Origin: Gemmatimonadaceae bacterium
Lineage (GTDB): Bacteria; Gemmatimonadota; Gemmatimonadetes; Gemmatimonadales; Gemmatimonadaceae
DNA: 31,817 nucleotides
Assembly: GCA_036565945.1 (NCBI GenBank)
Contig: DATCXG010000577.1
Location: forward strand, 1 to 31,817
Direction: 5' to 3'
A program made the translations under genes and the position numbers. The notes under the pieces are model-generated. The model had not been told where the DNA came from. It ran no database searches and saw nothing but the letters and a program-made list of their open reading frames with translations. Shown in pieces: positions 1 through 11,979 of this stretch. Each line of letters starts with the position of its first letter. Positions within the stretch are counted from its first letter, which is position 1.

Positions 1-293
1 CTCGCGGCCGCCGTCTCGCTACTGACCGAACCGGTCGCTACCCCGGCCGAGTCGGCCGCCTGGGAGGGGACGGCGCTCGATGGAGCGGTATCGACGACAG
101 AAGGAGTAGAAGCAGCCGGTACGGCCGCGGTGTCAGCTGCGTCGCTGGTATTTTCAGCGTTATTTGGCGAGCAAGCCAGTGCGGTCAAGCTCAGGACGCA
201 CGCGCAGAAGAAACCGATTCCAGCGAGACGGCTGGTGTCCGACGAGTGATTTGCCGGTGGGAAATTCTTCGACAAGCTCATGTTCCAGCTCAT
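1..293 (-). CDS. Lipoprotein, only the N-terminal part is in the window (runs off the left edge); probable membrane-anchored cytochrome c (XoxG-like)
   Basis: Not in the ORF track; translated by hand from ATG at 293 (alternative ATG at 281): MSWNMSLSKNFPPANHSSDTSRLAGIGFFCACVLSLTALAC|SPNNAENTSDAADTAAVPAASTPSVVDTAPSSAVPSQAADSAGVATGSVSSETAAA..., open to base 1. It has a hydrophobic stretch, a lipobox-like ALA-C and an Ala/Ser/Thr/Pro linker. The XoxG identity is inferred only from its position after xoxF-xoxJ; no CxxCH is visible. Confidence 0.55.
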   Translation of the reverse strand, partial: MSWNMSLSKNFPPANHSSDTSRLAGIGFFCACVLSLTALACSPNNAENTSDAADTAAVPAASTPSVVDTAPSSAVPSQAADSAGVATGSVSSETAAA

Positions 294-388
294 GTTCCGA
301 AGTTAGTCGGCTTCGGGTTCTCATGATTTCGGCCGACCGAGAGGTGAATGATGCGAGATTGTTGCAGTCGCATCGCGGATCCGGACCG

Positions 389-1270
389 TCAGTGCGGCGC
401 CATCACGGTGGGGATATTGTACTCGCGCAAGATCTTCTGGATCTCGCCGCGGTTCTTTTCGAGAGCTGCTTCCAACAGGTCCCTGAGCTCCCGATCGGCA
501 TGACGCACGCCGATTGCAAAGTCGTACGAAAATGGCAGCCCCGTGCTGTCGGAATCCGGCAGCGCCACCAGCTTCAGGGGCACTGGTGAGCTCTTCGCGT
601 AGTACCCAGCGAGCGGTCCCCAGACGAGGGCGACGTCCACATCTCCCTTGATGACGGCGTCAATGATCTCGCGCGGCTGGTGGTCCTGACCGTAGAACGT
701 GCTGTACCACTTCAGATTCTTGGACACGCCGCGCGCGGCCAGCGCCTCCGCGGGTGGAGTGTTGGTATAGTCGTTCCCTATGAGGTTGAGACCGATAGTC
801 AGCCCCTTGAGGGCTGGATCGTCGAGACTGGAGATGTCGATGCCGCGATCGGCACGCGACACGACGTAGTAAGTGGAGCGGTAATACGGTTTCGTGGTGA
901 GTACCATATCCAACTGCGCGGGGATGCCGACGATCACATCACATTCGGCCGACCGCAGGGTGTTGCTCACGAAGCCGCGCCGGTGGGGCCACCAGAGGTA
1001 TGATACCGAGTCTCCCAGCTCCCTGGCGAGAAGCTCGGCGATCTTGTTCTCGAAGCCTTCCTGCTTCCAGTTCGAGAAGGGGAGGTTGTCGGGATCCCCG
1101 CAGACGCGGAGAACCTTCATGGTCTTCCAGGCCTGCGTGACAGGCAAGGTCCCCGGGCGAATGCCAATCTGTGGTCTCTCGGGTTCCTGCTGAGCCAGGC
1201 CGGGGTACGCCGCGAGCGGCAGCGCGAACAGCGTCGCGAGAGCCACGCGGAGTAACGACGGATACGACAT
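389..1270 (-). CDS. xoxJ: XoxJ/MoxJ-family periplasmic substrate-binding protein of quinoprotein alcohol dehydrogenase systems
   Basis: Signal peptide ending LAQQ; family motifs LRVCGDPDNLPFSN and EGFENKIAELLARELG; later DVALVWGPLAGYYA; GAGGG RBS upstream; directly downstream of xoxF. Confidence 0.9.
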   Translation of the reverse strand: MSYPSLLRVALATLFALPLAAYPGLAQQEPERPQIGIRPGTLPVTQAWKTMKVLRVCGDPDNLPFSNWKQEGFENKIAELLARELGDSVSYLWWPHRRGFVSNTLRSAECDVIVGIPAQLDMVLTTKPYYRSTYYVVSRADRGIDISSLDDPALKGLTIGLNLIGNDYTNTPPAEALAARGVSKNLKWYSTFYGQDHQPREIIDAVIKGDVDVALVWGPLAGYYAKSSPVPLKLVALPDSDSTGLPFSYDFAIGVRHADRELRDLLEAALEKNRGEIQKILREYNIPTVMAPH

Positions 1271-1306
1271 CTACGCCCTCACGGCGATTTCTGCGGGTTG
1301 GAACAA

Positions 1307-1352
1307 AGCCGCGTCCGGAGCCAGAGCGGATGCTCCGCCTCCGGACGCGGCT
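1307..1352. repeat. Perfect 14-bp inverted repeat (hairpin) in the xoxF-xoxJ spacer
   Basis: AGCCGCGTCCGGAG (1307-1320) and CTCCGGACGCGGCT (1339-1352); no U-tract on either side. Confidence 0.85.
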
Positions 1353-1389
1353 GAACACAATCTACTACACTTTCCGAGTATATACGTGC

Positions 1390-1448
1390 CCAAGATACCG
1401 GTCGCTGTGGCACGCAACGCGCCGACACTTCAGCGACCGGTATCCTGG
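1390..1448 (-). repeat. 18-bp inverted repeat (hairpin) just 3' of the xoxF stop
   Basis: CCAAGATACCGGTCGCTG (1390-1407) and CAGCGACCGGTATCCTGG (1431-1448); the single DNA mismatch is a G-U pair in the - strand RNA. Confidence 0.85.
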
Positions 1449-1458
1449 TTGGTACGGC

Positions 1459-3255
1459 TTACTTCTTGTCGAGCGCGAATACCGTGAGCACGCCACCCTG
1501 GTTGCTGTAGGAGCCAACGTCGCCGAAGGCGCCGAGGGCACCGAGGCCGGCGGTCGGGTCTTCAGCCCCGATCCCAGCGGCCACGCCGATTCCGGCCCAG
1601 CCACCAATACCAGAGAGGACGGCGACGTACTGCCGGCCATCGGGGCCGGTGTAGGTCATCGGGCTACCGATGATTCCCGACGGGGTCTTGAACTTCCACA
1701 GCTCCTTACCCGTCTTGCCGTCGACAGCCTTGAGCCAGCCTTCCATCGTGCCGTAGAACACGACGCCGCCGGAAGTGTTCAGCGTGCCGCCGTAGGCCGC
1801 CAGGTTCTCCTTCGCCGTCCACACGATCTTCCCCTTCATGGGATCCCATGCGATGACCGCACCGCGGTTCCCACCGGGGCCGGGGTACATGCGCACGATG
1901 GCGCCAACGTACGGCTGGCCAGCGGCGTACTTCACCTCGACGCCCTCGTAGTCCATGCAGATGTTGTTCGTGGGGACGTAGAACAGCCCGGTCTCCGGGG
2001 AGTACGATGCCGGCTGCTGATCCTTGAAGCCGATAGCGGCGGGGCAGATCCCCTCGGTGTTACGCGCGGCCGTGGTACGCTTGGCCGGGTTCTCGATCGG
2101 GCGACCGCTGGTCAGGTCGATCTTGGTAGCCCAGTTCACGGGGCCGTAAGGCTCGGCGACAATCACCTTGCCCGTCGTGCGGTCGAGCGTGTAGCCGAAG
2201 CCGTTACGGTCGAAGTGAGCGAGGAGCTTCTGGCCGTTACGGTCGAAGAGGATGTTCTCGTTGACGCCATCGTAGTCCCACGCATCGTGGGGCGTCATCT
2301 GATAGACCCACTTCACTTCACCCGTCTGCGGGTTACGCGCGAAGAGCGACATCGACCACTTGTTGTCGCCGGGGCGCTGATCGGGGTTCCAGACACCCGG
2401 GTTGCCGGTGCCGTAGTAGAACAGGTTCAGCGCGGGATCGTAGGAGTACCAACCCCAGGTCGTGCCGCCGCCGCGCTTCCACTCATCGCCTTGCCATGAG
2501 GAGACGCCGAGGTCCTTGCCCTGTGCCGAAGGGTACGGCGACTTGAGCGTGTTGCCGGTGATCATCACATCGGCGTCGGGCCCGGTGCTCCAGCCGCGCC
2601 AGATCTGCTTGCCATCGTTGGCGCTGTAGGCCGTCACGTGGCCACGCACGCCGAACTCACCACCAGAGACGCCGACGATCACCACGTCACCCACTACCAG
2701 TGGGGCGTTCGTCATCGTCTCGCCCTTCTTGTAGTCGGCGTTCTTCACCCGATACACCTGCTTGCCGGTCTTCGCGTCGAGCGCAAGGAGATCGCCTTCC
2801 AGCAGCTGGATGTAGAGGCGGTTGTGCTTCGGGCTGTACGCCAGGCCGCGGTTCACGATATCGCAGCAGGCGATGGGGATCGCGTCGGCTGGCTGCTCCG
2901 GCGTGAACTGCCAGATCTGCGGCGCGCCGTCCTTGGTGAGGTCGAGAGCGTAGACCTTGTTCGGGAACGCGGTCTGTACGTACATCACGTTGCCGATGAC
3001 CAGCGGGCTCCCTTCGTGTCCACGCAGAACACCGGTGGAGAACGTCCACTGTACATGCAGGTCCTTCACGTTGGCCGTGGTGATCTGCTTGAGTGGGCTG
3101 TGGCGCTGCAGGTCCCAGGTTCTCCCAGCCATGACCCACTGGTTGGGATTCTTGGTCATCTCCGTAAGCTCCTGCTGCGCCACCACCGGTGGCGCGAAGG
3201 CAGCGAGCGATCCGGCGACCATTGCCCAGGACGAGAGGCGGGTGATGCGATTCAT
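1459..3255 (-). CDS. xoxF: Lanthanide-dependent PQQ methanol dehydrogenase XoxF (598 aa)
   Basis: Start trimmed to MNRITRL (ATG at 3255, AAGGGG RBS). Sec signal peptide; WTFSTGVLRGHEGSPL; vicinal cysteines ACCDIVNRG; GGEFGVRG (metal-binding Glu); GTGNPG (metal-binding Asn); WDYDGVNE with the catalytic Asp plus the second, lanthanide-coordinating Asp (Ca-type MxaF has D-x-A). Confidence 0.95.
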   Translation of the reverse strand: MNRITRLSSWAMVAGSLAAFAPPVVAQQELTEMTKNPNQWVMAGRTWDLQRHSPLKQITTANVKDLHVQWTFSTGVLRGHEGSPLVIGNVMYVQTAFPNKVYALDLTKDGAPQIWQFTPEQPADAIPIACCDIVNRGLAYSPKHNRLYIQLLEGDLLALDAKTGKQVYRVKNADYKKGETMTNAPLVVGDVVIVGVSGGEFGVRGHVTAYSANDGKQIWRGWSTGPDADVMITGNTLKSPYPSAQGKDLGVSSWQGDEWKRGGGTTWGWYSYDPALNLFYYGTGNPGVWNPDQRPGDNKWSMSLFARNPQTGEVKWVYQMTPHDAWDYDGVNENILFDRNGQKLLAHFDRNGFGYTLDRTTGKVIVAEPYGPVNWATKIDLTSGRPIENPAKRTTAARNTEGICPAAIGFKDQQPASYSPETGLFYVPTNNICMDYEGVEVKYAAGQPYVGAIVRMYPGPGGNRGAVIAWDPMKGKIVWTAKENLAAYGGTLNTSGGVVFYGTMEGWLKAVDGKTGKELWKFKTPSGIIGSPMTYTGPDGRQYVAVLSGIGGWAGIGVAAGIGAEDPTAGLGALGAFGDVGSYSNQGGVLTVFALDKK

Positions 3256-3675
3256 AGAGTTCGGCCCCTTGGATGGAGAGTGAGGATAGAGCAGAACCGC
3301 GCATGATCCGCACGCTGTGCCACAGGCCTCGCGGTCGAGGGTCGTCCTGTGGCTAGTCCGGCTGCTAGTGCAGCTGGACAGCATGCCTAGCAAAAGGGAG
3401 GACTTCGTGCGCTACAGTCCATACAGCCCATCGCAACCTCACGGTCCCGGGGCAACGCCATGAATCGAGTACAGTCTTCTACAAGAAAGTGCTCTATCAC
3501 AATGAACTACCGCGATATGCGGTGCGCCGCCTAGCGAGCGATCCCTCGCCCGAATGGACAAGTTGCATCCTTATCCTGCACCACTGACGCAGGATAGGCA
3601 AGCCCTCGCGCAGAATCTCTCCCGACCACCCTGAGGAGCAGTGGCCGGGGGAGAATACTGGCACATCGGCTGCGA

Positions 3676-3700
3676 TCGGCACTGGTAGCGGCAGTGCCGA
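3676..3700 (-). terminator. 9-bp stem hairpin immediately 3' of the porin stop (terminator or RNA-stabilising stem)
   Basis: TCGGCACTG-GTAGCGG-CAGTGCCGA, 3 nt from the stop codon; no U-tract, so it is not a canonical intrinsic terminator. Confidence 0.5.
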
Positions 3701-3703
3701 GAA

Positions 3704-4960
3704 TCAGAAGAACAGCATGAAGCCCGTAGCTACCTGGTTGGACTTCACCTTGTTGTCGGAGAACGACTCGGAAGTGGCCCAGGTGTACTCACCCACCCAC
3801 TTGAGAGCCTTCGTCCACTGGTAGGCCACCAGCCCGTCGATCGAGCGGTTGCTCTTCACGAGGTCGTTGTCGACGTCGGCAGGATCGTTGTCGGTCGTCT
3901 TGAGCCTGCTGTCGCCGTAGCTCGCGCCGATCATCCACTTGGTGCCGGGCGCCTGGAAAGTGGCCTGGCCTATGTAGCCGTATGACTTGCGCTTGTCGCC
4001 CGCGTTGTCGAGCGCACCGGTGCCCTGTCCGAACATGAAGGTGGTACCGACGCCATCGGCGTAGTAACCCGAGCCCATGAGGGAGAACCCGGAGACGTCG
4101 AGCTTGAGGCCGCCGGCCCCACCGGTGGAGGTGATGCTGGGGTTGTCGCCCGCTACGTCCAGGGGCGAGGCATCGGTCTTCTGAACCATCCCGCTCGCCC
4201 AGAAGAGCACCTTGTTGGCGCTGGCCGCCTCGTCGCTAGCTTCGCCAAAATTCCCAGTCCAGGTGAACTCCGCCTCGACACGGGGAATCTTGGTACCGGA
4301 GTAAGCCGCAGTACCCGCAGTACCGCAGCCATCCTGCGGGCAGACGACGCTCGGGTCGAAGACTCCGATCGAGATCTGCGCCGGCCGGCCGGCGGGGCTG
4401 CTGTAGGTGATCTGCCCGTTGAAGTTCGGGTAGATGTAGCCGAGCCCGATACGGCCCAGCGTGGTGCCTCCAGCTCCCACGACGCCGCCACTCGCGCCGG
4501 TGCCGGAGAGGGTCATGTCGGTGAGGATGTTCTGCCGCTGATAGAGCCCGATCGCACGGCCGGCGAGGATCTGTCCCCAGGAGCCGCCAGCAGTGAGGTA
4601 GACCTCACGCATGTCGATCTGGGCGCCGAAGTTGTCGTGCAGGCTGTTGCTCTGGATCTGTGGGGCAAAACTGAAGTGCACGCCCAGATCCACCCCACCC
4701 TCTTTCCCCGAGGCGGAGAAGGTTGCGTATGCGGGGAGGAGGCCGGTACGCACGCGGCTTGCCTTCTCTGCTGTGATGAGGCCACCGGTGATGGGTCCGG
4801 CCTGGTCCACCGAACCATCGTTGTAGACGGCAAATGCGTTCACGTTTCCGGAGAACGAGAACATCCAGCCGCTGCTGGTTTGCATCGTGAGTCCCTGCGC
4901 CCCAAGGCCACTAGCTGTGGCGAACGACAGGGCAACACACCAAAGCGCGGATCGTTTCAT
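3704..4960 (-). CDS. Outer-membrane beta-barrel porin (418 aa)
   Basis: Start trimmed to MKRSALWCVALS (ATG at 4960, GGAGAG RBS). Signal peptide, alternating amphipathic strands rich in G/S/T/aromatic residues, C-terminal GFMLFF ending in Phe (BAM-type signal); no TonB box or plug domain recognised. Confidence 0.8.
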   Translation of the reverse strand: MKRSALWCVALSFATASGLGAQGLTMQTSSGWMFSFSGNVNAFAVYNDGSVDQAGPITGGLITAEKASRVRTGLLPAYATFSASGKEGGVDLGVHFSFAPQIQSNSLHDNFGAQIDMREVYLTAGGSWGQILAGRAIGLYQRQNILTDMTLSGTGASGGVVGAGGTTLGRIGLGYIYPNFNGQITYSSPAGRPAQISIGVFDPSVVCPQDGCGTAGTAAYSGTKIPRVEAEFTWTGNFGEASDEAASANKVLFWASGMVQKTDASPLDVAGDNPSITSTGGAGGLKLDVSGFSLMGSGYYADGVGTTFMFGQGTGALDNAGDKRKSYGYIGQATFQAPGTKWMIGASYGDSRLKTTDNDPADVDNDLVKSNRSIDGLVAYQWTKALKWVGEYTWATSESFSDNKVKSNQVATGFMLFF

Positions 4961-5324
4961 ACCTGCTCTCCCAGACCAAGAGAATACCTGAAAGGGAACC
5001 ACTGGAGTCCGAGAAATCGTAGCACGCGAGCGAACGGATACTCTTGAGTAGCGCCGCGAGGAACGTCGCAAGCTACGTATGCGTGATGGTCACCTCCGGA
5101 AATGGCCTATGCGGCGCACGAGCAGCACCCGTCACCGGGCACCAAGAAGAGACAACGACGGCAGCAAGATATGAGCAACAGTATCGAACAACCACCAGAA
5201 AACATATAGCACTCCAATGTGTAGCGGACACAACGCTTCGCGCAAGCAGGCATCGAGACCGGCACGGGAAGCCGGCGAGAGGGCCAATATATATTTAGTA
5301 TCAATATGTTGCTAATCGCGCGCG

Positions 5325-5936
5325 CTACCTGGATCCCGGTTCGAAGAGGAGGACCAGCGGGACCTTCACCGATTCGGCCAGGACGTACTTCCACTGGTAC
5401 ATCGGGCTCCGCGAGATGGGGCTAGTACGCGTGGGAGATGTGAGTGGTGTCATGCCCAGGCGCCGCGCGAGGATCGAGAGCCGCAGCATGTGGAACGGGT
5501 CGCTCACCAGAAGCACGGACCGCCCGGGAAGCGCGTCGAGCATCGCCCGCACGGCGTGCAACGATTGACTCGTCGTGAGGCCACGCGCTTCCATTATGAT
5601 CGCGCTGTCGGGAAGCCCGTTCCGACGCAGGTAGTTGCGACCCACCATCGCTTCGCTGGTCGTGTCGCCCACGCCAATTCCGCCGGTTACTATGACGACC
5701 GGCGCCAGGTCGCGACGCCAGAGATCGAGAGCGTGATCGAGCCGCGCGCGCAGCACCGGGGACGGGCGCCCCTCGTACTGCGCCGCCCCGAGAACCACTA
5801 TGGCGTCCGCCGGCTGCGCCTCATCGCGCCACCCCACGAACAGCACGGCTAGCACCATGCCTATCCAGGCAAGAAGGACGAGCACCGCGAGCCCGAGCGC
5901 GAGGCGCGGCGCCCCGGTGTGCTTCGGGCGCTCCAT
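5325..5936 (-). CDS. YdcF/DUF218 (ElyC/SanA-like) family membrane-anchored protein
   Basis: N-terminal TM helix; ADAIVVLGA, RARLDHALDLW, IVTGG, SEA, LLVSDPFHMLR and final E motifs typical of the family. Confidence 0.85.
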   Translation of the reverse strand: MERPKHTGAPRLALGLAVLVLLAWIGMVLAVLFVGWRDEAQPADAIVVLGAAQYEGRPSPVLRARLDHALDLWRRDLAPVVIVTGGIGVGDTTSEAMVGRNYLRRNGLPDSAIIMEARGLTTSQSLHAVRAMLDALPGRSVLLVSDPFHMLRLSILARRLGMTPLTSPTRTSPISRSPMYQWKYVLAESVKVPLVLLFEPGSR

Positions 5937-5982
5937 GGCGGTGAAGTCGGCGGTGGTGATGGCGAGGTATGGAGAGGTGCAG

Positions 5983-6573
5983 CTACTCGGTGAGGTTCAG
6001 GAGAGAGAGCCAGAATACGTCGAATGATGCGCGCGCGTTGAATTCCACGTCGATCCCGGTCGCCACGGCCAGACCATCGATGAAGGGGATCACCACATCG
6101 GCCAGAAGCCCGGCCGGCACACGTGGGCGCATGGAGAGCAGCACGAAGAGTTGCTCGATGGAAGCGGCGGCCGCATCGCGACGTTCCAGGGTCGAGACCT
6201 GGATGGCACGCCGCACGAGAGGCCCACGCCACTGCGCCAGTTCGAGCAGCACGCGTACGTGGCCACGTTCCAGCTCCGCCGATAGCCAGGCCCAGAGGTC
6301 GTCGATCGCGTGGCGCGGCGTCGACTCGCCGAGCGCCGCGCGCTCACGTGCCACGAGGTTCCGCGTCATCCACTCGACCACGCGCGCGAGCAGGGTCTCC
6401 TTGTCGTGGAAGTGGTAGTGGATCAGCCCCTTGCTCACACCGGCCTCTTCCGCAACCTCGTGCATCGTGAGAGCGGTCGCGCCCGATGAGACGATGCAGC
6501 GCACCGCCGCACGGAGAATGCGTTCGGCGGCCTCCACGCGCGGCCGCCGCTCCGATGTGGCCGCGGCGGTCAT
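5983..6573 (-). CDS. TetR/AcrR-family transcriptional regulator
   Basis: N-terminal HTH: RILRAAVRCIVSSGATALTMHEVAEEAGVSKGLIHYHFHDKETLL. Confidence 0.92.
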   Translation of the reverse strand: MTAAATSERRPRVEAAERILRAAVRCIVSSGATALTMHEVAEEAGVSKGLIHYHFHDKETLLARVVEWMTRNLVARERAALGESTPRHAIDDLWAWLSAELERGHVRVLLELAQWRGPLVRRAIQVSTLERRDAAAASIEQLFVLLSMRPRVPAGLLADVVIPFIDGLAVATGIDVEFNARASFDVFWLSLLNLTE

Positions 6574-6727
6574 GGTCTGTTCTGGGAAAACTTCACACGC
6601 ATATGCGGCGTGGGGAAGGTCACCTGGTACCCCCTGGCCGCAAGCGCGGCCGCCTTCGATGATCGAAGGAGCTGGACATTGGAGAGGGCCCTGGTGACGA
6701 ACTCAATTTCCACTTACCAGGGCTGAC

Positions 6728-6919
6728 TCAGGATGGAGCATTGGCGAGTTCGCCGGTGGGCATGCGCTGGAACACGACCGTCAGCCGCTGCGAGTCCTGC
6801 GACATGAGCGCAGGTTCCCATCCAGCGCGGCTTCTCTCGTTCAGTAAATCGGTGAGCGCGTCCTCGTCATCCTGACTGCGGCGGGTGAGCCTCAGCAGGA
6901 CTGCCTGATATTCTTTCAT
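6728..6919 (-). CDS. Small DUF4177-like protein (63 aa)
   Basis: Pattern MKEYQAV...LTDLLNERSRAGWE...LTVVFQR resembles DUF4177 (EY..., LN..G..GWE, ..F.R); GGGAG upstream. Confidence 0.65.
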   Translation of the reverse strand: MKEYQAVLLRLTRRSQDDEDALTDLLNERSRAGWEPALMSQDSQRLTVVFQRMPTGELANAPS

Positions 6920-6988
6920 GTGGGCGAAGATACTCCCGTCGTCCCCATGCCCACCACCCCCGCGCCCGCTTGCGCGCGGCCGCCGCGT

Positions 6989-7642
6989 CTACCCGAACCA
7001 CTCGCGCGGGCAGTCGCGTTGCTGACGCGCGGCCTCGAGCACCCACTTCTGGCCCTGGCAGTCGGTGACCTCTTCCTCCACCCGGTTGAACCATCCGGCG
7101 GCACGCGTCACCTCGCCCACTCGCCGCCAGAGCTCGCCTACTAGATAGGTGAGCACCGGACGTTCCTCACGCTCCACACCATCAAAGGAGGCCAGCGCTC
7201 GCTCGAATGTCCAGGCGGCTTCGCGGCGGAAATAGCGCTCGGCCTCTATGTCTCCCTCGTCCACACAGCACCAGGCCGCTCGGAGCAGGAGATCGGCGAC
7301 GCGTCGCGGCTCCGCGCCCTGCCAGGTGGCCACCTTCGCCGCGAACTCGTACTTCTCCGAGCCTGGTATCACACCATCGGCCAGCTTGGGGGCCAGCTCG
7401 TCCCAGATGTGCTCCTTGAGCATCGGGCTGACGTCGGCCTCCTCGCCAAAATCGTGTTCGCTGCCCGCGTATCCGCAACGGGAGCAGACGTGGATGAAGT
7501 AGGGTAGGGGCTGGGCGCCGGCCGCACGTTCGTGGAAGTCGGTACGCTTTCCGCCGAACGAATTCGTGGAGAGCACCGCCTGCGATGTGAAGCGGTTACA
7601 GCATATGGGGCAGCTCAGTTCTATCTGCTTCAGGGTTGTCAT
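6989..7642 (-). CDS. DUF2225-family protein (Zn-ribbon plus TPR-like helices, 217 aa)
   Basis: Start trimmed to MTTLKQIEL (AGGAGG/GAGGA RBS). CPIC...RTDFH...P.PY.I.VCSRCGY, then LRAAW and YLVGELWRRVG...WF helical repeat. Confidence 0.8.
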   Translation of the reverse strand: MTTLKQIELSCPICCNRFTSQAVLSTNSFGGKRTDFHERAAGAQPLPYFIHVCSRCGYAGSEHDFGEEADVSPMLKEHIWDELAPKLADGVIPGSEKYEFAAKVATWQGAEPRRVADLLLRAAWCCVDEGDIEAERYFRREAAWTFERALASFDGVEREERPVLTYLVGELWRRVGEVTRAAGWFNRVEEEVTDCQGQKWVLEAARQQRDCPREWFG

Positions 7643-7900
7643 TCCTCGCCTCCTGCACCCTCCTCGCGAGGCGTACAGGGGAAGATGTGTGCCATGCGTT
7701 CGCTTCTCGCTGCCGTACCTCTCAGCCGCCACTATTCCCTCGGCACTGCCCGCCAGCCCCGAGGTCAGGAGCACGAGCCGGGGTGGGGGTGGGATCCGAG
7801 CCGCACGGCGTGCCGCGCCACGGCAACACTCCCGGGCCAGGAACGCCAGTCAGGGATGCCGTTGGAAAGTGGGGAGGCCACGCTGCGGGACACTCCCGGG

Positions 7901-9406
7901 TCACTTCCCGACGCAGAAGCTACTGAAGACGCGGTCGAGAACATCTTCCACATCGATGCCGCCGATGAGCGACTCGAGAGCGAGCGACGCGGCGTGCAGG
8001 TGTACCGCGGCCACGATGGCCGGGAGAGCCCCCTCGCGCCAGGCGCGGGCGAAGTCGGAGACCTCGTCGCGCGAGCGCTGTACGGCGATCCTGTGCCGCT
8101 CACGCGTGAGGAGTGGGGTGGCCGTATCGCTCTCCACGCCATCGCCCCCCTTCCCGTATCGCTCGGTGAGCAGCAGTGCCAGCGCGTCGATGAGGTCGCC
8201 GAGCCCAGCTCCGGTGGCGGCACTCACCCGAACCCCTCCACGCACGCAAGGCAGCTCGCCGCCGGCAGATGACACGTCTATTTCATCGCGATATGGTACT
8301 AATGTGCCATCAGATGATGATTCGATAAGGCTGTACGAATCGTGACTTAGTGCTACTAAATCGCTTTTCGTACTGACCTCGAGCACTGGCGCCGCGGTGA
8401 GGGAGCGCACGCGCGACGACGTGAGTGCCAGCGAGGTCGCGTCATCGCCGCACGCCAGCACGGCGTGGGCGGAACGCAGGTAGCGCTCACTCACTTCTAT
8501 ACCCAACCGCTCCACCACATCGGCGGTCTCGCGCAGCCCCGCCGTGTCCACCAGGCGCACGGGCCACGGCCCGATGTCGGCCACCGCCTCGATGGCATCA
8601 CGCGTGGTACCCGGTACATCGGTCACTATGGCGCGGGTGTTCCCCAGCAGTGCGTTGAAGAGCGAGGACTTCCCCGCGTTCGGCGCGCCGGCGATGACGA
8701 CCACCGCGCCCCTGCGTACCAGCTCGCCTGTGGCGGCCGTGGCGATCAGCGCGTCCAGTGCAGCCAGCAGCCCTTCGATCGCGCTCTCCACGCGCGCGGC
8801 CGGCACCGGGCCATCGTCCTCTTCGGGGAAGTCTATCTCGTAGGCGATGAGCGCCTCCAGGCCGATGATGGCTTCGCGCAACGACGCGATCCGGCGCGAG
8901 AGGCTCCCCTCGAGCTGGCCGATGGCGGCGTGGTGCATGGCGCGCGACTGGGCATCTATGAGGTCGCCCACGCCTTCCGCCTGCAGGATGTCCATCTTGC
9001 CGTTGGCCACCGCACGGCGCGTGAACTCACCTGGCAGTGCCTCGCGCGCGCCAGCGGCCATGAGCGCGGCCACGGCGAGCACGCCCACCAGCGCTCCCCC
9101 GTGGACGCTCAGTTCCACGAGGTCCTCGCCGGTGTAGGAGCGTGGTGCGGCATACACGGTGACCACCGGACGGTCGATCACAGCGTCGGTGCCTGGGCCG
9201 CGCAGCGTCGCCAGGTAGGCGGAGCGTGGAGTCGAACGCCAGGGCCGGAGTACGCGTGCGGCGATCGCGTGGGCTCGCGGGCCACTCAGGCGGATGACCG
9301 CCAGAGCTGCGCGGCCAGGCGCCGTGGCCAGCGCTACTATGGTATCGTCGGAGCCAGGGAGCGGCAGGGGCTCACCGGCTTCATGCGCAGAGAGAGGCGT
9401 CTTCAT
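7901..9406 (-). CDS. mnmE: tRNA modification GTPase MnmE (TrmE)
   Basis: DTIVALATAPGRAALAVIRLSG; GEFTRRAVANGKMD; G1 GAPNAGKSS; G2 PGTTRD; G3 DTAG; G4 TKSD; C-terminal FSSFCVGK; ATGA overlap with the upstream MBL gene. Confidence 0.96.
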   Translation of the reverse strand: MKTPLSAHEAGEPLPLPGSDDTIVALATAPGRAALAVIRLSGPRAHAIAARVLRPWRSTPRSAYLATLRGPGTDAVIDRPVVTVYAAPRSYTGEDLVELSVHGGALVGVLAVAALMAAGAREALPGEFTRRAVANGKMDILQAEGVGDLIDAQSRAMHHAAIGQLEGSLSRRIASLREAIIGLEALIAYEIDFPEEDDGPVPAARVESAIEGLLAALDALIATAATGELVRRGAVVVIAGAPNAGKSSLFNALLGNTRAIVTDVPGTTRDAIEAVADIGPWPVRLVDTAGLRETADVVERLGIEVSERYLRSAHAVLACGDDATSLALTSSRVRSLTAAPVLEVSTKSDLVALSHDSYSLIESSSDGTLVPYRDEIDVSSAGGELPCVRGGVRVSAATGAGLGDLIDALALLLTERYGKGGDGVESDTATPLLTRERHRIAVQRSRDEVSDFARAWREGALPAIVAAVHLHAASLALESLIGGIDVEDVLDRVFSSFCVGK

Positions 9407-10203
9407 TGCCCGGGGCCGTCGAGCTGGAACGAGGTACCTGGATCGAGGATCTTCACATCCGCACGGCGGTGGTGCGCCTCGATGTCGGCGCGTAACTCCT
9501 CGATAGCCTGGAATGCCCCCGAGGTGAGGTGCTGGAACGTACCCCAGTGGTAGGGGATGAAGTAGCGCGCGCCGAGCAATTCGAAGAGCGTCAGCGCGTC
9601 ACGCGGGGTGAGGTGGCCTCGGCGAAACGATGGTCGCTTCCACCAGGGAGCGTGACCGATGGGAAGGAGCGCGACGTCGAGCGAGCGCTGGTGGGGCACG
9701 AGTAGCCGGTCCCGCACCATGCCGCGCGCATCGGCCGAGAGCGCCGTGTCGCCCGCGAAGAAGCACGCAGAGACATGATCGTCGACCAGGTACATATTGG
9801 CTGTGCCACGCCAGCGGTCCACGGCGTAGCGCGCACCCAGGTGGCGGGCGGTGGAAGCGGTGATCTCGAGCGACCCGACAGTCACCGTCTCACCACTCGC
9901 GAGCGGCTCCGCGTTACGGTAGCCGCGGCGAGTGAGCCAGCGCGCGAGCGCGGGCGGCGCGAAAAGCGGTACGTCGCCGGGCAGGGCATCCAGCGATGCG
10001 AAGGAGAGGTGATCGGCGTGCGCGTGCGTGAGAAGCATGGCGTCGAGCCGCGGCAGCTCTCCGAGCGCGATCCCCGGAGGCGAGACACGCGGCAGGAACC
10101 CACCCAGCCGCGTATCGAAGTTGGGGTCGGTGAGGATCCGAGCCCCACTCAGCTCCAGCAGCAGCGTCGCATGCCCCACATAAGTAACACGCATCCTGCT
10201 CAT
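9403..10203 (-). CDS. Metallo-beta-lactamase-fold hydrolase (NAPE-PLD/UPF0173-like)
   Basis: MRVTYVGHAT...ILTDP; THAHADH (HxHxDH); FAGDT; LLPIG; IPYHWGTF. Alternative ATG at 10194. Confidence 0.9.
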   Translation of the reverse strand: MSRMRVTYVGHATLLLELSGARILTDPNFDTRLGGFLPRVSPPGIALGELPRLDAMLLTHAHADHLSFASLDALPGDVPLFAPPALARWLTRRGYRNAEPLASGETVTVGSLEITASTARHLGARYAVDRWRGTANMYLVDDHVSACFFAGDTALSADARGMVRDRLLVPHQRSLDVALLPIGHAPWWKRPSFRRGHLTPRDALTLFELLGARYFIPYHWGTFQHLTSGAFQAIEELRADIEAHHRRADVKILDPGTSFQLDGPGQ

Positions 10204-10239
10204 CGGTCCCCCCGGCAGCTTCCCCCTCCCGCTACGGTC

Positions 10240-11979
10240 TTACCCCGTCCTCGCCCCCGTCCTGGTGGCGGTCGCGGGCGATGGTGGAGTGGATACCGGC
10301 CCGACCTTGGCCCGCTCGCGGGCGATGAGCCACTGCTGAGGAAGCGCGGCGATGTTCTGCACGGCGTAGTACAGATTGAGCCCGGCGGCAAGGTTCAGGA
10401 AGAACACCGTCATCATCACCGGGAAGAAGTAGGCCATCATCTTGGCCTGCGCGTTCGGCGGTGAGCTGCGCAACCCTATCCACGACAGCACGAACATCGA
10501 GATCCCCATCACTATCGGCAGGATGTAGTAGGGATCTTTCAGCGAGAGGTCCATCATCCAGAGAAAGGAGACGCCCCGGAACTCGATGGTATTCTGGAAC
10601 ACGAAGTACAGCGCGAACAGCACCGGCATGGGGATGAGCATGGGCAGGCACCCGGCCAACGGGCTGAACGGACTCATCCCGTGTTCCTTGTACAGCTTCA
10701 TTATCTCCGCCTGCTGCTTCTCCGGCGTGCCCTTGTACTTCTTCTGCAGTGCCTGCAGCTCCGGCTGGATGCGCTGCATCTTGAGGCTCGAGCGCATGGC
10801 ACTCTGGTTCAGCGGCCAGAGGATCAGCCGTACCACCACCCCGAAGATGACCAGCACCCAGCCGTAGTTGATCTGCAGGTGGTCATGAGTCCAGAGGAGG
10901 ATCCTCATGACGATCGTCGCGAACGGTTGCACGATGCGCTGGAAGAAGCCGCCGTACGGGTTCACGTGGTCGAAGTCGTTCCCGAGCGCCAGGAGTCGCC
11001 GCCACTCCTGGGGACCGGCGTAGACATCGAACGCAAAGTCCCCCTGTTGTCCGACGGGCTCGAGCACCACCGCCGTGGCATTGGTCTCCACCTTGCCCTC
11101 GTACGGTAGCCCACGCAGAACCACGCCGCTGAACGGACCAGTGGTACTATCGGTGAGCATGCCGAGCACGAAGTACTTGCTCTTGGTGGCAACCCAGTCG
11201 AGGGGCCCGTTCTCGGTGCGTACCTCGGTGGTGTCGAGCTTGTTGAACGGGGCGCTCTCCGCGTCCTCACCCGTCTGCTTCACCACGTAGGCGAGGTGTC
11301 GCTGGTCGTCCGTCGTATCGGCTTCCTGCGAGTTCAGTCCCCGGGGCAGCCGGACGAGCAGATACCTGGAGCCAGTACCGGGCTCTTCCACCTTCCCGCG
11401 CACCCTCACCAGATAGCTGTCCGGCGAGAACGTGTACGAGATGGCAACCGCGGTCCCTCCGGCATTCGTCCGGAAGGTGAGGGTCGGGAGCTCGTGTCCC
11501 GGCGCCGTGGTGCTGTCCACGGTGAACGGGAGCCGGTCCAACCGCACGGTATCGCCGCTCGCGCGCAGGAGCTCGTACTCCATGAGCGGCACCCCGGTAC
11601 GCGCCATCTGCACGGGGCCATCAGGCCCAGAGAGCGCCTGGTAGCCGTGCAACTCGACGCCGAGCGGGACCGCACCCACGGTGCTGAAACTATAGGTCGC
11701 CTTGGAGCCAACCACCTTGATGGTGTCGGCCTTGACCGCGGCTGCGCTGAGGGACTCGGCCACGGCGGCTGTCGGCGGCGTAGGCACCAGCGTCGTGGCA
11801 ACCGGGGTGTCTACCGCCCTAGCGCTGGCAGCCGCGCTCGATTCCGGCGAGGTAGCCACCAGGGCAGAGTCCGCGGTGGAACCGGCCGGCAGCGGTGCCA
11901 CGGGCGGTGGAAATAGCCTCGGCGTGATGATCAGGATGGCCGCGGCAAGGATTACGAAGATGATGAAGCGCTTATCCAT
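10240..11979 (-). CDS. yidC: Membrane protein insertase YidC
   Basis: N-terminal TM, large periplasmic domain, YGWVLVIFGVVVRLILWPL, MQRIQPELQALQKKYK, GCLPMLIPMPV, AGLNLYYAVQN; canonical position after yidD. Confidence 0.96.
   Translation of the reverse strand: MDKRFIIFVILAAAILIITPRLFPPPVAPLPAGSTADSALVATSPESSAAASARAVDTPVATTLVPTPPTAAVAESLSAAAVKADTIKVVGSKATYSFSTVGAVPLGVELHGYQALSGPDGPVQMARTGVPLMEYELLRASGDTVRLDRLPFTVDSTTAPGHELPTLTFRTNAGGTAVAISYTFSPDSYLVRVRGKVEEPGTGSRYLLVRLPRGLNSQEADTTDDQRHLAYVVKQTGEDAESAPFNKLDTTEVRTENGPLDWVATKSKYFVLGMLTDSTTGPFSGVVLRGLPYEGKVETNATAVVLEPVGQQGDFAFDVYAGPQEWRRLLALGNDFDHVNPYGGFFQRIVQPFATIVMRILLWTHDHLQINYGWVLVIFGVVVRLILWPLNQSAMRSSLKMQRIQPELQALQKKYKGTPEKQQAEIMKLYKEHGMSPFSPLAGCLPMLIPMPVLFALYFVFQNTIEFRGVSFLWMMDLSLKDPYYILPIVMGISMFVLSWIGLRSSPPNAQAKMMAYFFPVMMTVFFLNLAAGLNLYYAVQNIAALPQQWLIARERAKVGPVSTPPSPATATRTGARTG

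What the first reader, a model, noticed from the sequence alone, without database searches (positions are those of the whole stretch)
1..4960. Porin-xoxF-xoxJ-lipoprotein module: candidate lanthanide/PQQ uptake and methanol oxidation system in a probable Gemmatimonadota chromosome
Seen: four co-oriented genes, porin, xoxF with the D-Y-D lanthanide motif, xoxJ and a lipoprotein. The window has no pqq genes, TonB-dependent receptor, lanmodulin, ABC transporter or mxa genes. Established: XoxF needs PQQ and a lanthanide and passes electrons to cytochrome XoxG; characterised methylotrophs import lanthanides with TonB-dependent receptors plus ABC systems; XoxF has been reported in soil Gemmatimonadota genomes. 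Inference: a plain porin heading the operon may be an energy-independent entry route for Ln3+, scavenged PQQ or methanol, a route I do not know to be characterised. From memory, and needing a check, porins also sit in Pseudomonas PQQ-alcohol-dehydrogenase clusters (PA1974, PP_2662), so this may be a recurring but unstudied accessory.
Basis: partly seen in the sequence, partly recalled or inferred. Interest (0 to 1): 0.8.

Follow-up and report, generated by a model that had tools for sequence, protein, structure and literature searches.

The report
Porin gene beside methanol-dehydrogenase operon
A soil Gemmatimonadaceae genome has an outer-membrane porin gene just upstream of a lanthanide-type methanol dehydrogenase operon, and because relatives of this porin sit beside several unrelated kinds of alcohol dehydrogenase in other phyla, it most likely lets small alcohols in rather than lanthanides or the PQQ cofactor.

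Summary
Four minus-strand genes encode a porin (3704-4960), XoxF with WDYDG and a Cys-Cys pair (1459-3255), a XoxJ-type binding protein (389-1270) and a lipoprotein start (1-293). The lipoprotein is the N-terminus of a lipid-anchored XoxG cytochrome c: contig C614 overlaps the window start by 24 bases and continues the frame into a CxxCH domain.

The link between porin and alcohol dehydrogenase is real and recurs.
- In 44 of 60 Gemmatimonadota loci the porin lies within 9 kb of a PQQ dehydrogenase.
- Its usual partner there is a different lanthanide-type enzyme (here "ADH2") plus a small unknown protein, both upstream. This window lacks both.
- In Gammaproteobacteria the same porin family follows xoxF-xoxJ-xoxG.
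- In Desulfuromonadota and relatives it lies next to iron-type alcohol dehydrogenases, behind sigma-54 promoters.
- The Pseudomonas lead is correct, and PP_2662 is already proposed as a short-chain-alcohol porin.

PQQ scavenging is very unlikely. 71 of 80 porin-bearing genomes encode pqqC, this genome has pqqB and the start of pqqC, and the many PQQ-dehydrogenase genomes without pqqC lack the porin. Lanthanide entry is not excluded. Co-transcription with xoxF is doubtful: the spacer is 451 bp with three hairpins.

Verdict: a new member of a known but barely studied kind, of moderate interest.

The parts
3704..4960 (-). Porin gene: 418 aa, Sec signal peptide, C-terminal Phe, Gly-rich L3-like loop at residues 138-179.
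   Evidence: It is the only Porin_4-like gene detected at this level in G000 (two copies), G276, G219, G272 and G351.
3560..3703 (-). Three strong RNA hairpins directly after the porin stop codon. They may act as a terminator or as a stabiliser of the mRNA 3' end.
   Evidence: MFE -69.1 kcal/mol, z = -3.5, and 0 of 200 shuffles fold as well. Sequence.
3256..3703 (-). Spacer of about 450 bp between porin and xoxF, long enough to hold a separate xoxF promoter.
   Evidence: In relatives the same gap is 311-4566 bp and sometimes holds opposite-strand genes.
1459..3255 (-). xoxF: lanthanide-type PQQ methanol dehydrogenase (598 aa including signal peptide; WDYDG and a vicinal Cys-Cys).
389..1270 (-). 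xoxJ-type periplasmic binding protein (MoxJ_2 family, TIGR03871).
1..293 (-). 5' part of xoxG: signal peptide, lipobox Cys and an Ala/Ser/Thr/Pro linker. The gene continues on contig C614 (locus L147:2-538) into a CxxCH cytochrome c domain.
   Evidence: exact 24-bp overlap and the frame continues (the window protein ends '...SSETAAA' and C614 begins 'SSETAAASV...'); orthologues all carry CxxCH; best family hits are TIGR03874 and PedF, below cut-off.
5286..5315 (-). Sigma-70-like promoter match in an AT-rich patch about 325 nt upstream of the porin ATG. No sigma-54 motif occurs here.
   Evidence: a consensus match only; no TGGCAC-N5-TTGC motif in 1-7000.
5325..6573 (-). DUF218 (5325-5936) and TetR-family regulator (5983-6573): conserved upstream neighbours of the porin module in this family of Gemmatimonadota.
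   Evidence: Synteny TetR-DUF218-(ADH2-c8)-porin in L001-L007 and L011.

Best explanation
The porin is an accessory outer-membrane diffusion channel that has been co-selected with alcohol oxidation. Its most likely job is to raise the flux of small neutral alcohols, here methanol, from outside the cell into the periplasm.

In the periplasm, XoxF (lanthanide plus PQQ) oxidises methanol, helped by XoxJ, and passes electrons to a lipid-anchored XoxG cytochrome c. Formaldehyde then goes to a tetrahydromethanopterin-linked pathway, whose cofactor-synthesis genes follow on the adjoining contig.

Shown: the porin fold, the XoxF/XoxJ/XoxG identities, the contig join, and the statistical and syntenic link of this porin family to alcohol dehydrogenases of several cofactor classes.

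Inferred: the cargo, and any co-regulation in this genome.

Inferred evolutionary history: in Gemmatimonadota the porin belongs to an older module of ADH2 (a second lanthanide-type PQQ dehydrogenase), a small unknown protein 'c8' and the porin. The xoxFJG cassette was added downstream in one family. This lineage then lost ADH2 and c8 from the locus.
For: 1. 16-18-stranded porin fold.

2. Gemmatimonadota:
- 44 of 60 porin loci have a PQQ dehydrogenase within 9 kb.
- 41 loci have a co-oriented upstream ADH2 (WDLDA, CC), and 9 loci counting this window and C581 have a downstream XoxF.
- Across 401 genomes, 68 have both porin and ADH2, 12 the porin only, 13 ADH2 only and 308 neither.
- The ADH2-c8-porin core stays intact although its flanks differ between genera.

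3. Independent re-association elsewhere:
- In a sample of 360 Gammaproteobacteria, 31 genomes have the family, and 5-6 of the 28 loci where it was detected have a PQQ dehydrogenase within 9 kb.
- Two of these genomes have xoxF(WDYDG)-xoxJ-xoxG(CxxCH)-porin, a different gene order from the one here.
- A Myxococcales locus (L068) and a Thiotrichaceae locus (L071) also pair the porin with a PQQ dehydrogenase.

4. The common denominator is the substrate, not the cofactor:
- 39 of 80 loci from Desulfuromonadota, Myxococcota and Proteobacteria carry an Fe-type alcohol dehydrogenase (in 33, divergent from the porin), together with a sigma-54 regulator pair, an AmiS/UreI-type inner-membrane channel and an aldehyde dehydrogenase.
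- All 33 loci where the Fe-ADH is divergent from the porin have a TGGCAC-N5-TTGCA promoter upstream of the porin. The background expectation is 0.035 per region.
- One homologue sits inside a mycofactocin/Fe-ADH cluster (L061).

5. Published analogue: PP_2662 in the P. putida ped cluster is induced by ethanol and methanol. Its truncation during evolution on ethylene glycol stopped glycolate accumulation (PMC12997753).

6. Downstream genes on C614 include beta-RFAP synthase (TIGR00144, 179.6 bits against a cut-off of 113.5). There are also below-cut-off matches to a dihydropteroate-synthase-like protein and to (5-formylfuran-3-yl)methyl phosphate synthase. This fits C1 metabolism.
Against: - No transport or expression data exist for this protein. 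No RNA runs hold the locus.
- Small alcohols cross general porins, and to some degree membranes, so the need for a dedicated channel is not self-evident.
- In this window the porin is separated from xoxF by 451 bp with hairpins, and probably has its own promoter.
- 13 Gemmatimonadota loci keep the porin with no dehydrogenase within 9 kb, and 12 porin-bearing genomes have no ADH2 orthologue by my query.
- It is the only Porin_4-like gene in the genomes I checked, which also fits a general porin.
- Genomes within a phylum are kin, so the co-occurrence counts overstate the number of independent events.
- Every porin-linked PQQ dehydrogenase seen has the lanthanide-type Asp. A lanthanide role for the PQQ-linked subfamilies is therefore not excluded.
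- Many loci in other phyla (those with only the porin and a ~300-aa partner gene) have no dehydrogenase nearby.
Confidence: 0.55

Rival explanations
1. It is the cell's housekeeping general diffusion porin. Its position next to dehydrogenase genes in Gemmatimonadota is inherited gene order with no functional meaning, and xoxFJG happened to insert beside it.
For: - One copy per genome, and the only Porin_4-like hit in five genomes checked.
- It keeps its place when ADH2 is absent from the locus (13 loci).
- It has its own promoter-like site and strong hairpins after the stop codon, as is typical of abundant monocistronic outer-membrane-protein genes.
- Its conserved charged residues are balanced (3 Arg, 5 Asp/Glu), as in general porins.
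- The porin tree broadly follows taxonomy.
Against: - It was not found in 321 of 401 genomes of the phylum, which must still have general channels.
- Its distribution nearly matches that of ADH2 and pqqC.
- The family has independently become linked to xoxFJG in Gammaproteobacteria, in a different gene order.
- It is also linked to Fe-ADH behind sigma-54 promoters in Desulfuromonadota.
- The chance expectation of a dehydrogenase within 9 kb is about 1% (my estimate).
Confidence: 0.2
2. It is an energy-independent entry route for Ln3+ into the periplasm, supplying the lanthanide-type dehydrogenases.
For: - Every PQQ dehydrogenase found next to a member of this family has the lanthanide-type Asp: WDYDG, WDFDG or WDLDA.
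- The mature porin is mildly acidic, with 33 Asp+Glu against 26 Lys+Arg.
- Porin-mediated lanthanide uptake has been postulated for Beijerinckiaceae RH AL1 and listed as a possibility for P. putida, but never shown (PMC8316094; PMC12997753).
Against: - Half of the sampled loci from other phyla pair the porin with Fe-type alcohol dehydrogenases that need no lanthanide.
- At least 138 Gemmatimonadota genomes have a PQQ alcohol dehydrogenase over the family cut-off but no such porin (218 against 80).
- No acidic ring or metal-binding motif is conserved.
- G000 has about 18 TonB-receptor matches. One (contig C216) is the orthologue of a receptor that sits directly upstream of ADH2 or the porin in other genera, so a receptor route in the usual manner is available.
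- At soil pH, free Ln3+ is scarce and is usually taken up as a chelate (established knowledge).
Confidence: 0.1
3. It is an entry route for PQQ scavenged from the environment.
For: - The window has no pqq genes.
- A receptor whose best family hit is PqqU sits next to the porin or ADH2 in a few genera. This shows that cofactor or metal uptake genes can join the locus.
Against: - G000 encodes pqqB (354 bits against a cut-off of 245), followed by the start of pqqC at a contig end.
- Three of four congeners have pqqC and pqqE over their cut-offs.
- 71 of 80 porin-bearing genomes have pqqC, whereas PQQ-dehydrogenase genomes without pqqC, the real candidate scavengers, mostly lack the porin.
- There is no OprP-like arginine ladder for a trianion.
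- Known PQQ import uses the TonB-dependent PqqU (abstract; cited in PMC10875860).
Confidence: 0.03

Closest known systems
PP_2662 of Pseudomonas putida KT2440 and its homologue PA1974 of P. aeruginosa (porin-domain protein at the edge of the ped/exa PQQ-alcohol-dehydrogenase cluster)
   Same: Both are outer-membrane porin-domain proteins encoded beside PQQ alcohol dehydrogenases. PP_2662 is proposed to admit short-chain alcohols and is co-induced with ped genes by ethanol and methanol. Its truncation lowers flux through periplasmic oxidation (PMC12997753).
   Different: - Different phylum.
- Sequence relatedness was not tested here, because I had no PP_2662 sequence.
- The partner here is XoxF methanol dehydrogenase with XoxJ and a lipid-anchored XoxG.
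- The conserved partner across Gemmatimonadota is a different enzyme (ADH2) plus an unknown small protein.
- The ped cluster also has a lanthanide ABC importer, which is absent here.
Classical trimeric porins with solved structures (DcaP of Acinetobacter baumannii 6eus, Omp32 2fgq, PorB 3a2s, OprP 2o4v, OmpF)
   Same: The predicted fold is the same: a beta-barrel of about 16 strands with an inward-folded loop. Foldseek E-values run from 1e-19 to 1e-13, with target-normalised TM up to 0.78. It also has a signal peptide and a C-terminal Phe.
   Different: - Only 9-15% sequence identity.
- A family profile finds no PDB chain by sequence.
- The protein is longer (395 aa mature) and has a Gly-rich L3-like motif.
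- There is no OprP-type arginine ladder.
- Trimer state is unknown.
xoxF-xoxJ-xoxG operons of methylotrophs (Methylorubrum extorquens XoxF1 6oc5, Methylacidiphilum XoxF 4mae) and XoxF3 clusters reported in Gemmatimonadetes/Acidobacteria MAGs (PMC10875860)
   Same: Same enzyme trio and the same lanthanide ligand signature. XoxF in Gemmatimonadetes is already published.
   Different: - That paper lists XoxG, XoxJ, NRAMP, a YncE-like propeller and a TonB receptor as neighbours, and never mentions a porin (0 occurrences).
- XoxG here is lipid-anchored on a linker of roughly 170 residues.
LutH/LanA-type TonB-dependent lanthanide uptake and PqqU TonB-dependent PQQ uptake
   Same: They serve the same enzymes by bringing metal or cofactor across the outer membrane.
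   Different: Those are energised, plug-containing 22-strand receptors. This protein is a plain porin with no plug or TonB box, so it is not a member of either.

Membership tests
Gram-negative porin superfamily (Porin_4, PF13609-like) | Sequence match to the family HMM | tested here: inconclusive
   The window protein has no Pfam hit at E <= 0.1. 16 of 49 aligned homologues hit PF13609, with a best E-value of 1.7e-21. Orthologues in G219 and G276 score 28-29 bits, just over the cut-off of 27.
Gram-negative porin superfamily (Porin_4, PF13609-like) | Beta-barrel of about 16 strands with an inward-folded constriction loop | tested here: met
   AF2 model with pLDDT 88.1. DSSP lists 18 strand segments (17 of six or more residues) and short helices in loop 138-179. 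The top 50 Foldseek PDB hits are all porins.
Gram-negative porin superfamily (Porin_4, PF13609-like) | Sec signal peptide and C-terminal aromatic residue for BAM recognition | tested here: met
   MKRSALWCVALSFATASGLGAQG at the N-terminus and ...MLFF at the C-terminus. This was read directly from the sequence; no signal-peptide predictor was run.
Gram-negative porin superfamily (Porin_4, PF13609-like) | Trimeric assembly and measured channel conductance | not testable with these tools
   Needs a multimer model or biochemistry.
Alcohol-cluster porins (PP_2662/PA1974 type) | Porin gene encoded next to a PQQ alcohol dehydrogenase cluster | tested here: met
   Window. 44 of 60 Gemmatimonadota loci. 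Gammaproteobacterial xoxFJG-porin loci.
Alcohol-cluster porins (PP_2662/PA1974 type) | Sequence homology to PP_2662/PA1974 | not tested
   None of the collections I could query gave me a PP_2662 sequence. From its UniProt name 'Porin domain-containing protein' I infer only a shared porin domain.
Alcohol-cluster porins (PP_2662/PA1974 type) | Induction by alcohols together with the dehydrogenase genes | not testable with these tools
   No RNA runs hold the locus. Indirect support from other members: sigma-54 promoters upstream of the porin beside a sigma-54 regulator and Fe-ADH.
XoxF lanthanide-dependent methanol dehydrogenase | PQQ methanol/ethanol-family propeller over the family cut-off | tested here: met
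   TIGR03075 scores 690.7 bits against a cut-off of 480.
XoxF lanthanide-dependent methanol dehydrogenase | Extra Asp two residues after the catalytic Asp (D-x-D), and the vicinal Cys-Cys | tested here: met
   WDYDG aligns with WDFDG of XoxF1 (6oc5). IACCD is present.
XoxF lanthanide-dependent methanol dehydrogenase | Closer to XoxF than to ethanol-type enzymes, with XoxJ and XoxG partners | tested here: met
   XoxF structures score 713-740 bits against 379-387 for PedH. XoxJ matches TIGR03871 over its cut-off. XoxG was completed through the C614 join and carries CxxCH. Clade (XoxF1-5) was not assigned.
TonB-dependent lanthanide or PQQ receptors (LutH, PqqU) | Plug domain plus 22-strand barrel | tested here: not met
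   The porin has no Plug or TonB_dep_Rec hit, and the model is a small plug-less barrel. Such receptors exist elsewhere in G000.

The most novel reading that the evidence does not exclude
The subfamilies of this porin that travel with lanthanide-type PQQ dehydrogenases (XoxF, ADH2) are passive, cation-selective entry channels for Ln3+ or a small Ln complex. That would be an energy-independent lanthanide route, distinct from the TonB/ABC route known from characterised methylotrophs. The evidence does not exclude this for the PQQ-linked members, because every linked PQQ enzyme seen carries the lanthanide Asp.
Probability: 0.1. Interest if true: 0.75.

Novelty: new member of a known kind. Interest (0 to 1): 0.45.

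Why it matters
Outer-membrane entry is the least understood step of periplasmic alcohol oxidation and of lanthanide biology. This work gives a concrete, widely distributed porin family: 2,543 hits among the 8,000 candidates scored in a 90%-identity protein collection, and 637 clusters at 50% identity. It occurs in Gemmatimonadota, Myxococcota, Desulfuromonadota, Gamma- and Alphaproteobacteria. It repeatedly and independently sits with alcohol dehydrogenases of three cofactor types.

If it is a real alcohol channel, three things follow:
- It would help explain how oligotrophic soil bacteria capture trace methanol.
- It would give a marker gene for such metabolism in metagenomes.
- It would give metabolic engineers a handle on substrate flux, as the PP_2662 truncation already hints.

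The work also corrects the picture of this locus. The enzyme's cytochrome partner is present, the organism makes its own PQQ, and the porin's conserved partner across this phylum is a second, uncharacterised lanthanide-type dehydrogenase plus an unknown small protein.

Tried and rejected
- A profile of the porin family against PDB sequences found nothing, so only fold comparison could classify it.
- The AlphaFold DB cluster search and the ESM Atlas search returned only generic 'porin' labels. They could not tell me whether PP_2662 is a relative.
- A 24-sequence alignment of distant homologues was too diverse for the search for related loci. A 7-sequence alignment worked.
- Public-run search found only soil DNA assemblies and no RNA. 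I therefore did not use read laying, and co-transcription stays untested.
- A look-up of earlier scan findings by sequence found no look-alike.
- The careful maximum-likelihood tree did not finish in the time allowed, so the quick tree (SH-aLRT only) was used.
- I considered the second porin-xoxFJG copy on contig C581 as a true paralogue. Its porin is sister to that of another genus (G244), and the MAG has 5.2% contamination, so I treat it as possibly foreign.
- I looked for a sigma-54 promoter upstream of the porin or xoxF in the window and found none.
Only conserved-charge counts were made.
- The tallies include one unpublished genome (G157). No specific claim rests on it.

Full report
**What is in the window**

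The region 1-4960 carries four genes on the minus strand.
- The first is a 418-aa protein (CDS 3704-4960) with a signal peptide and a C-terminal Phe.
- It has no Pfam or NCBIfam hit of its own, but 16 of 49 aligned homologues match PF13609 Porin_4.
- An AlphaFold model built on that alignment is confident (pLDDT 88.1, pTM 0.87). It is a beta-barrel with an inward loop at residues 138-179.
- All top Foldseek hits in the PDB are porins: DcaP, Omp32, PorB, OprP/OprO, OmpF.
- The database gene call for this protein starts 25 codons too late and omits the signal peptide.

The second gene (1459-3255) is a PQQ dehydrogenase.
- TIGR03075 scores 690.7 bits against a cut-off of 480.
- It carries WDYDG and a vicinal Cys-Cys.
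- It is much closer to solved XoxF enzymes (6oc5 at 740 bits, 6dam, 4mae) than to PedH (386 bits).

The third gene (389-1270) is a MoxJ_2/XoxJ-type binding protein (TIGR03871, 286.8 bits against 212).

The fourth (1-293) is the start of a lipoprotein cut by the contig end. The rest of the window holds DUF218, TetR, DUF2225, mnmE, yidC, dnaA, dnaN, a chemoreceptor, kinases and polA. No pqq gene, TonB receptor or ABC transporter was seen.

**The 'lipoprotein' is XoxG**

The window is a whole contig (C543) of a 644-contig MAG that is 77% complete.
- The reverse complement of the start of contig C614 overlaps the window start by 24 exact bases.
- The reading frame continues from the Ala/Ser/Thr/Pro linker into a cytochrome c domain with CYRCH.
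- That domain's best family hit is 'c-type cytochrome, methanol metabolism-related', below cut-off.
- Orthologues after xoxJ in seven related loci all have the same build: lipobox, long linker, CxxCH.
- This agrees with a separate first-reader note (e1-5315104).

C614 then carries a beta-RFAP synthase gene (over its subfamily cut-off). It also carries pabA/pabC-like genes, a dihydropteroate-synthase-like gene and an MfnB-like gene, all below cut-off. These are cofactor genes of the tetrahydromethanopterin/methanofuran formaldehyde pathway.

**Linkage of the porin to PQQ dehydrogenases in Gemmatimonadota**

The family is large: 2,543 hits among the 8,000 candidates scored, and 637 clusters at 50% identity. 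In 401 genomes of the phylum it occurs in 80, confined to two families, mostly as a single copy.

I fetched 60 of these loci.
- 44 have a PQQ dehydrogenase within 9 kb.
- 13 do not, and 3 are cut by contig ends on the upstream side.
- The usual partner is not XoxF. It is an upstream, co-oriented enzyme only 33-36% identical to XoxF, which I call ADH2. It also has the lanthanide signature (WDLDA) and Cys-Cys (41 loci).
- ADH2 is followed by a ~130-aa protein with a conserved DDFYWW motif and no family match ('c8'), and then by the porin.
- XoxF-XoxJ-XoxG lies downstream of the porin only in the window's own family: 9 loci counting the window and C581. Gaps run from 311 to 4566 bp and sometimes hold opposite-strand genes.
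- The window and its nearest relative G272 have lost ADH2 and c8 from the locus. G272 has also lost xoxF and xoxJ, so its porin is followed directly by the cytochrome gene.
- Across the 401 genomes, porin and ADH2 co-occur: 68 both, 12 porin only, 13 ADH2 only, 308 neither.
- The genomes are kin, so this is not 68 independent events. Even so, the three-gene core persists while its flanks differ between genera.

**Linkage outside the phylum**

A scan of one genome per species found 409 relatives of a distant subfamily. The best 80 come from Myxococcota, Desulfuromonadota, Gamma- and Alphaproteobacteria.
- 39 of the 80 loci have an Fe-type alcohol dehydrogenase within 6 kb; in 33 it is divergent from the porin.
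- These loci usually also have a sigma-54 response regulator and kinase, and downstream an SCO4226-like protein, an AmiS/UreI-type channel and often an aldehyde dehydrogenase.
- All 33 loci with a divergent Fe-ADH have a canonical TGGCAC-N5-TTGCA promoter on the porin strand. The background is 0.035 per region.
- One homologue lies inside a mycofactocin/Fe-ADH cluster.
- Two loci pair the porin with PQQ dehydrogenases (L068, L071).

In an even sample of 360 Gammaproteobacteria, 31 genomes have the family.
- 5-6 of the 28 loci where it was detected have a PQQ dehydrogenase within 9 kb.
- Two genomes have xoxF(WDYDG)-xoxJ-xoxG(CxxCH)-porin, the same four genes as here but with the porin last.
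- I estimate the chance expectation for such a neighbour at about 1%. That is my estimate, not a computed value.

**The Pseudomonas lead**

A 2026 review lists PP_2662 as a 'porin domain-containing protein' at the edge of the ped cluster, with PA1974 as its homologue at 72% identity.
- It is induced with ped genes by ethanol and methanol.
- It was truncated during laboratory evolution on ethylene glycol, with loss of glycolate accumulation (PMC12997753).

The lead is correct, and the accessory is not wholly unstudied. I could not test sequence homology to PP_2662.

**Which cargo?**

PQQ is very unlikely.
- G000 has pqqB over its cut-off, followed by the start of pqqC at a contig end.
- Three of four congeners have pqqC and pqqE.
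- 71 of 80 porin-bearing genomes have pqqC.
- By contrast, 218 genomes have a PQQ alcohol dehydrogenase over the cut-off but only 87 have pqqC. The probable PQQ scavengers are therefore mostly genomes without this porin.

Ln3+ has no positive support.
- The family also accompanies PQQ- and lanthanide-independent Fe-ADHs.
- At least 138 genomes with a PQQ alcohol dehydrogenase lack it.
- No acidic ring is conserved.
- G000 has many TonB receptors. One (contig C216) is orthologous to a receptor that sits directly upstream of ADH2 or the porin in other genera.
- Still, every PQQ enzyme linked to the family is lanthanide-type, so I leave 10% for this reading. Porin-mediated lanthanide uptake has only been postulated in the literature.

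The feature shared by all the partners (XoxF, ADH2, Fe-ADH, the mycofactocin system, aldehyde dehydrogenase, an AmiS/UreI-type channel) is a small alcohol substrate. That is why I favour a substrate channel.

**Is it an operon head?**

Probably not in a strict sense.
- The porin-xoxF spacer is 451 bp.
- The first 150 nt after the porin stop fold into three strong hairpins (z = -3.5; 0 of 200 shuffles fold as well).
- A sigma-70-like match lies upstream of the porin.
- No sigma-54 motif is present.
- No RNA data exist for the locus.

**Main rival**

The main rival is a housekeeping general porin with inherited gene order.
- It is supported by the single copy per genome, by its being the only Porin_4-like gene in five genomes, and by its persistence where ADH2 is not adjacent.
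- It is weakened by absence from 80% of the phylum's sampled genomes and by the independent associations in other phyla.

**Verdict**

This is a new member of a known but thinly studied kind: porins that accompany alcohol-oxidation gene clusters. The most useful new facts are:
- the cross-phylum recurrence with several dehydrogenase classes;
- the ADH2-c8-porin core module in Gemmatimonadota;
- the completed, lipid-anchored XoxG;
- the evidence against PQQ scavenging.

Noticed in passing
window 1-24 and L147 (G000:C614) 1-538: Contigs C614 (reverse complement) and C543 overlap by 24 exact bases inside the low-complexity linker of xoxG. The assembly broke there, and joining the contigs completes the gene. 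C614 continues with tetrahydromethanopterin/methanofuran cofactor genes: beta-RFAP synthase, pabA/pabC-like, dihydropteroate-synthase-like and MfnB-like.
   Followed up: yes
L002:10466-10882 (-), L017:10301-10732 (-), L148 (G000:C581) 7039-7557 (-): A conserved ~130-aa exported protein ('c8', motif DDFYWW) with no Pfam or NCBIfam match sits between ADH2 and the porin in about 25 Gemmatimonadota loci. Function unknown.
   Followed up: partly
L148 = G000:C581:1-7557: The MAG holds a second c8-porin-(209-aa gene)-xoxF-xoxJ-xoxG copy. Its porin is 58-59% and its XoxF 83% identical to the window's. Its porin is sister to that of another genus (G244), so with 5.2% contamination the contig may be foreign.
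   Followed up: partly
phylum-wide searches: 218 of 401 Gemmatimonadota genomes have a PQQ alcohol dehydrogenase over the family cut-off but only 87 have pqqC. Dependence on external PQQ therefore looks common in the phylum, and it occurs mostly in genomes without this porin.
   Followed up: partly
L005:10319-12820 (-), L044:12357-14492 (-); G000:C216:3180-5492 (-): A TonB-dependent receptor whose best family hit is PqqU (350-373 bits, far below the cut-off of 1200) lies directly upstream of the porin or of ADH2 in several genera, and has a 57%-identical copy in G000. It is a candidate cofactor or lanthanide receptor.
   Followed up: partly
L001 (G272:C139) 8202-10263: In the closest relative the porin is followed after 146 bp by the XoxG-like cytochrome gene, with xoxF and xoxJ missing. 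That genome also shows no pqqC. This looks like recent loss of the methanol dehydrogenase while the porin is kept.
   Followed up: partly
L090-L146 (for example L105, L111, L128): Conserved Desulfuromonadota locus. On one side: radical-SAM, sigma-54 regulator, kinase and Fe-ADH. Divergent from these: porin, SCO4226-like, AmiS/UreI-like channel, a ~300-aa protein and aldehyde dehydrogenase, with a canonical sigma-54 promoter before the porin. It looks like an inducible small-alcohol uptake and oxidation unit.
   Followed up: partly
L061:4128-8889: A homologous porin sits between an Fe-ADH and mftA-mftB-mftC (mycofactocin maturation) in a Myxococcota-like metagenome contig.
   Followed up: no
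L010 (G278:C1) 6944-8675: The xoxF downstream of the porin matches in two overlapping pieces in different frames (residues 28-319 and 319-596). This suggests a frameshift or pseudogene.
   Followed up: no
window 3704-5071: The public gene call for the porin (393 aa) begins 25 codons downstream of the likely ATG at 4960 and so lacks the signal peptide. Orthologues of 419-423 aa include it.
   Followed up: yes
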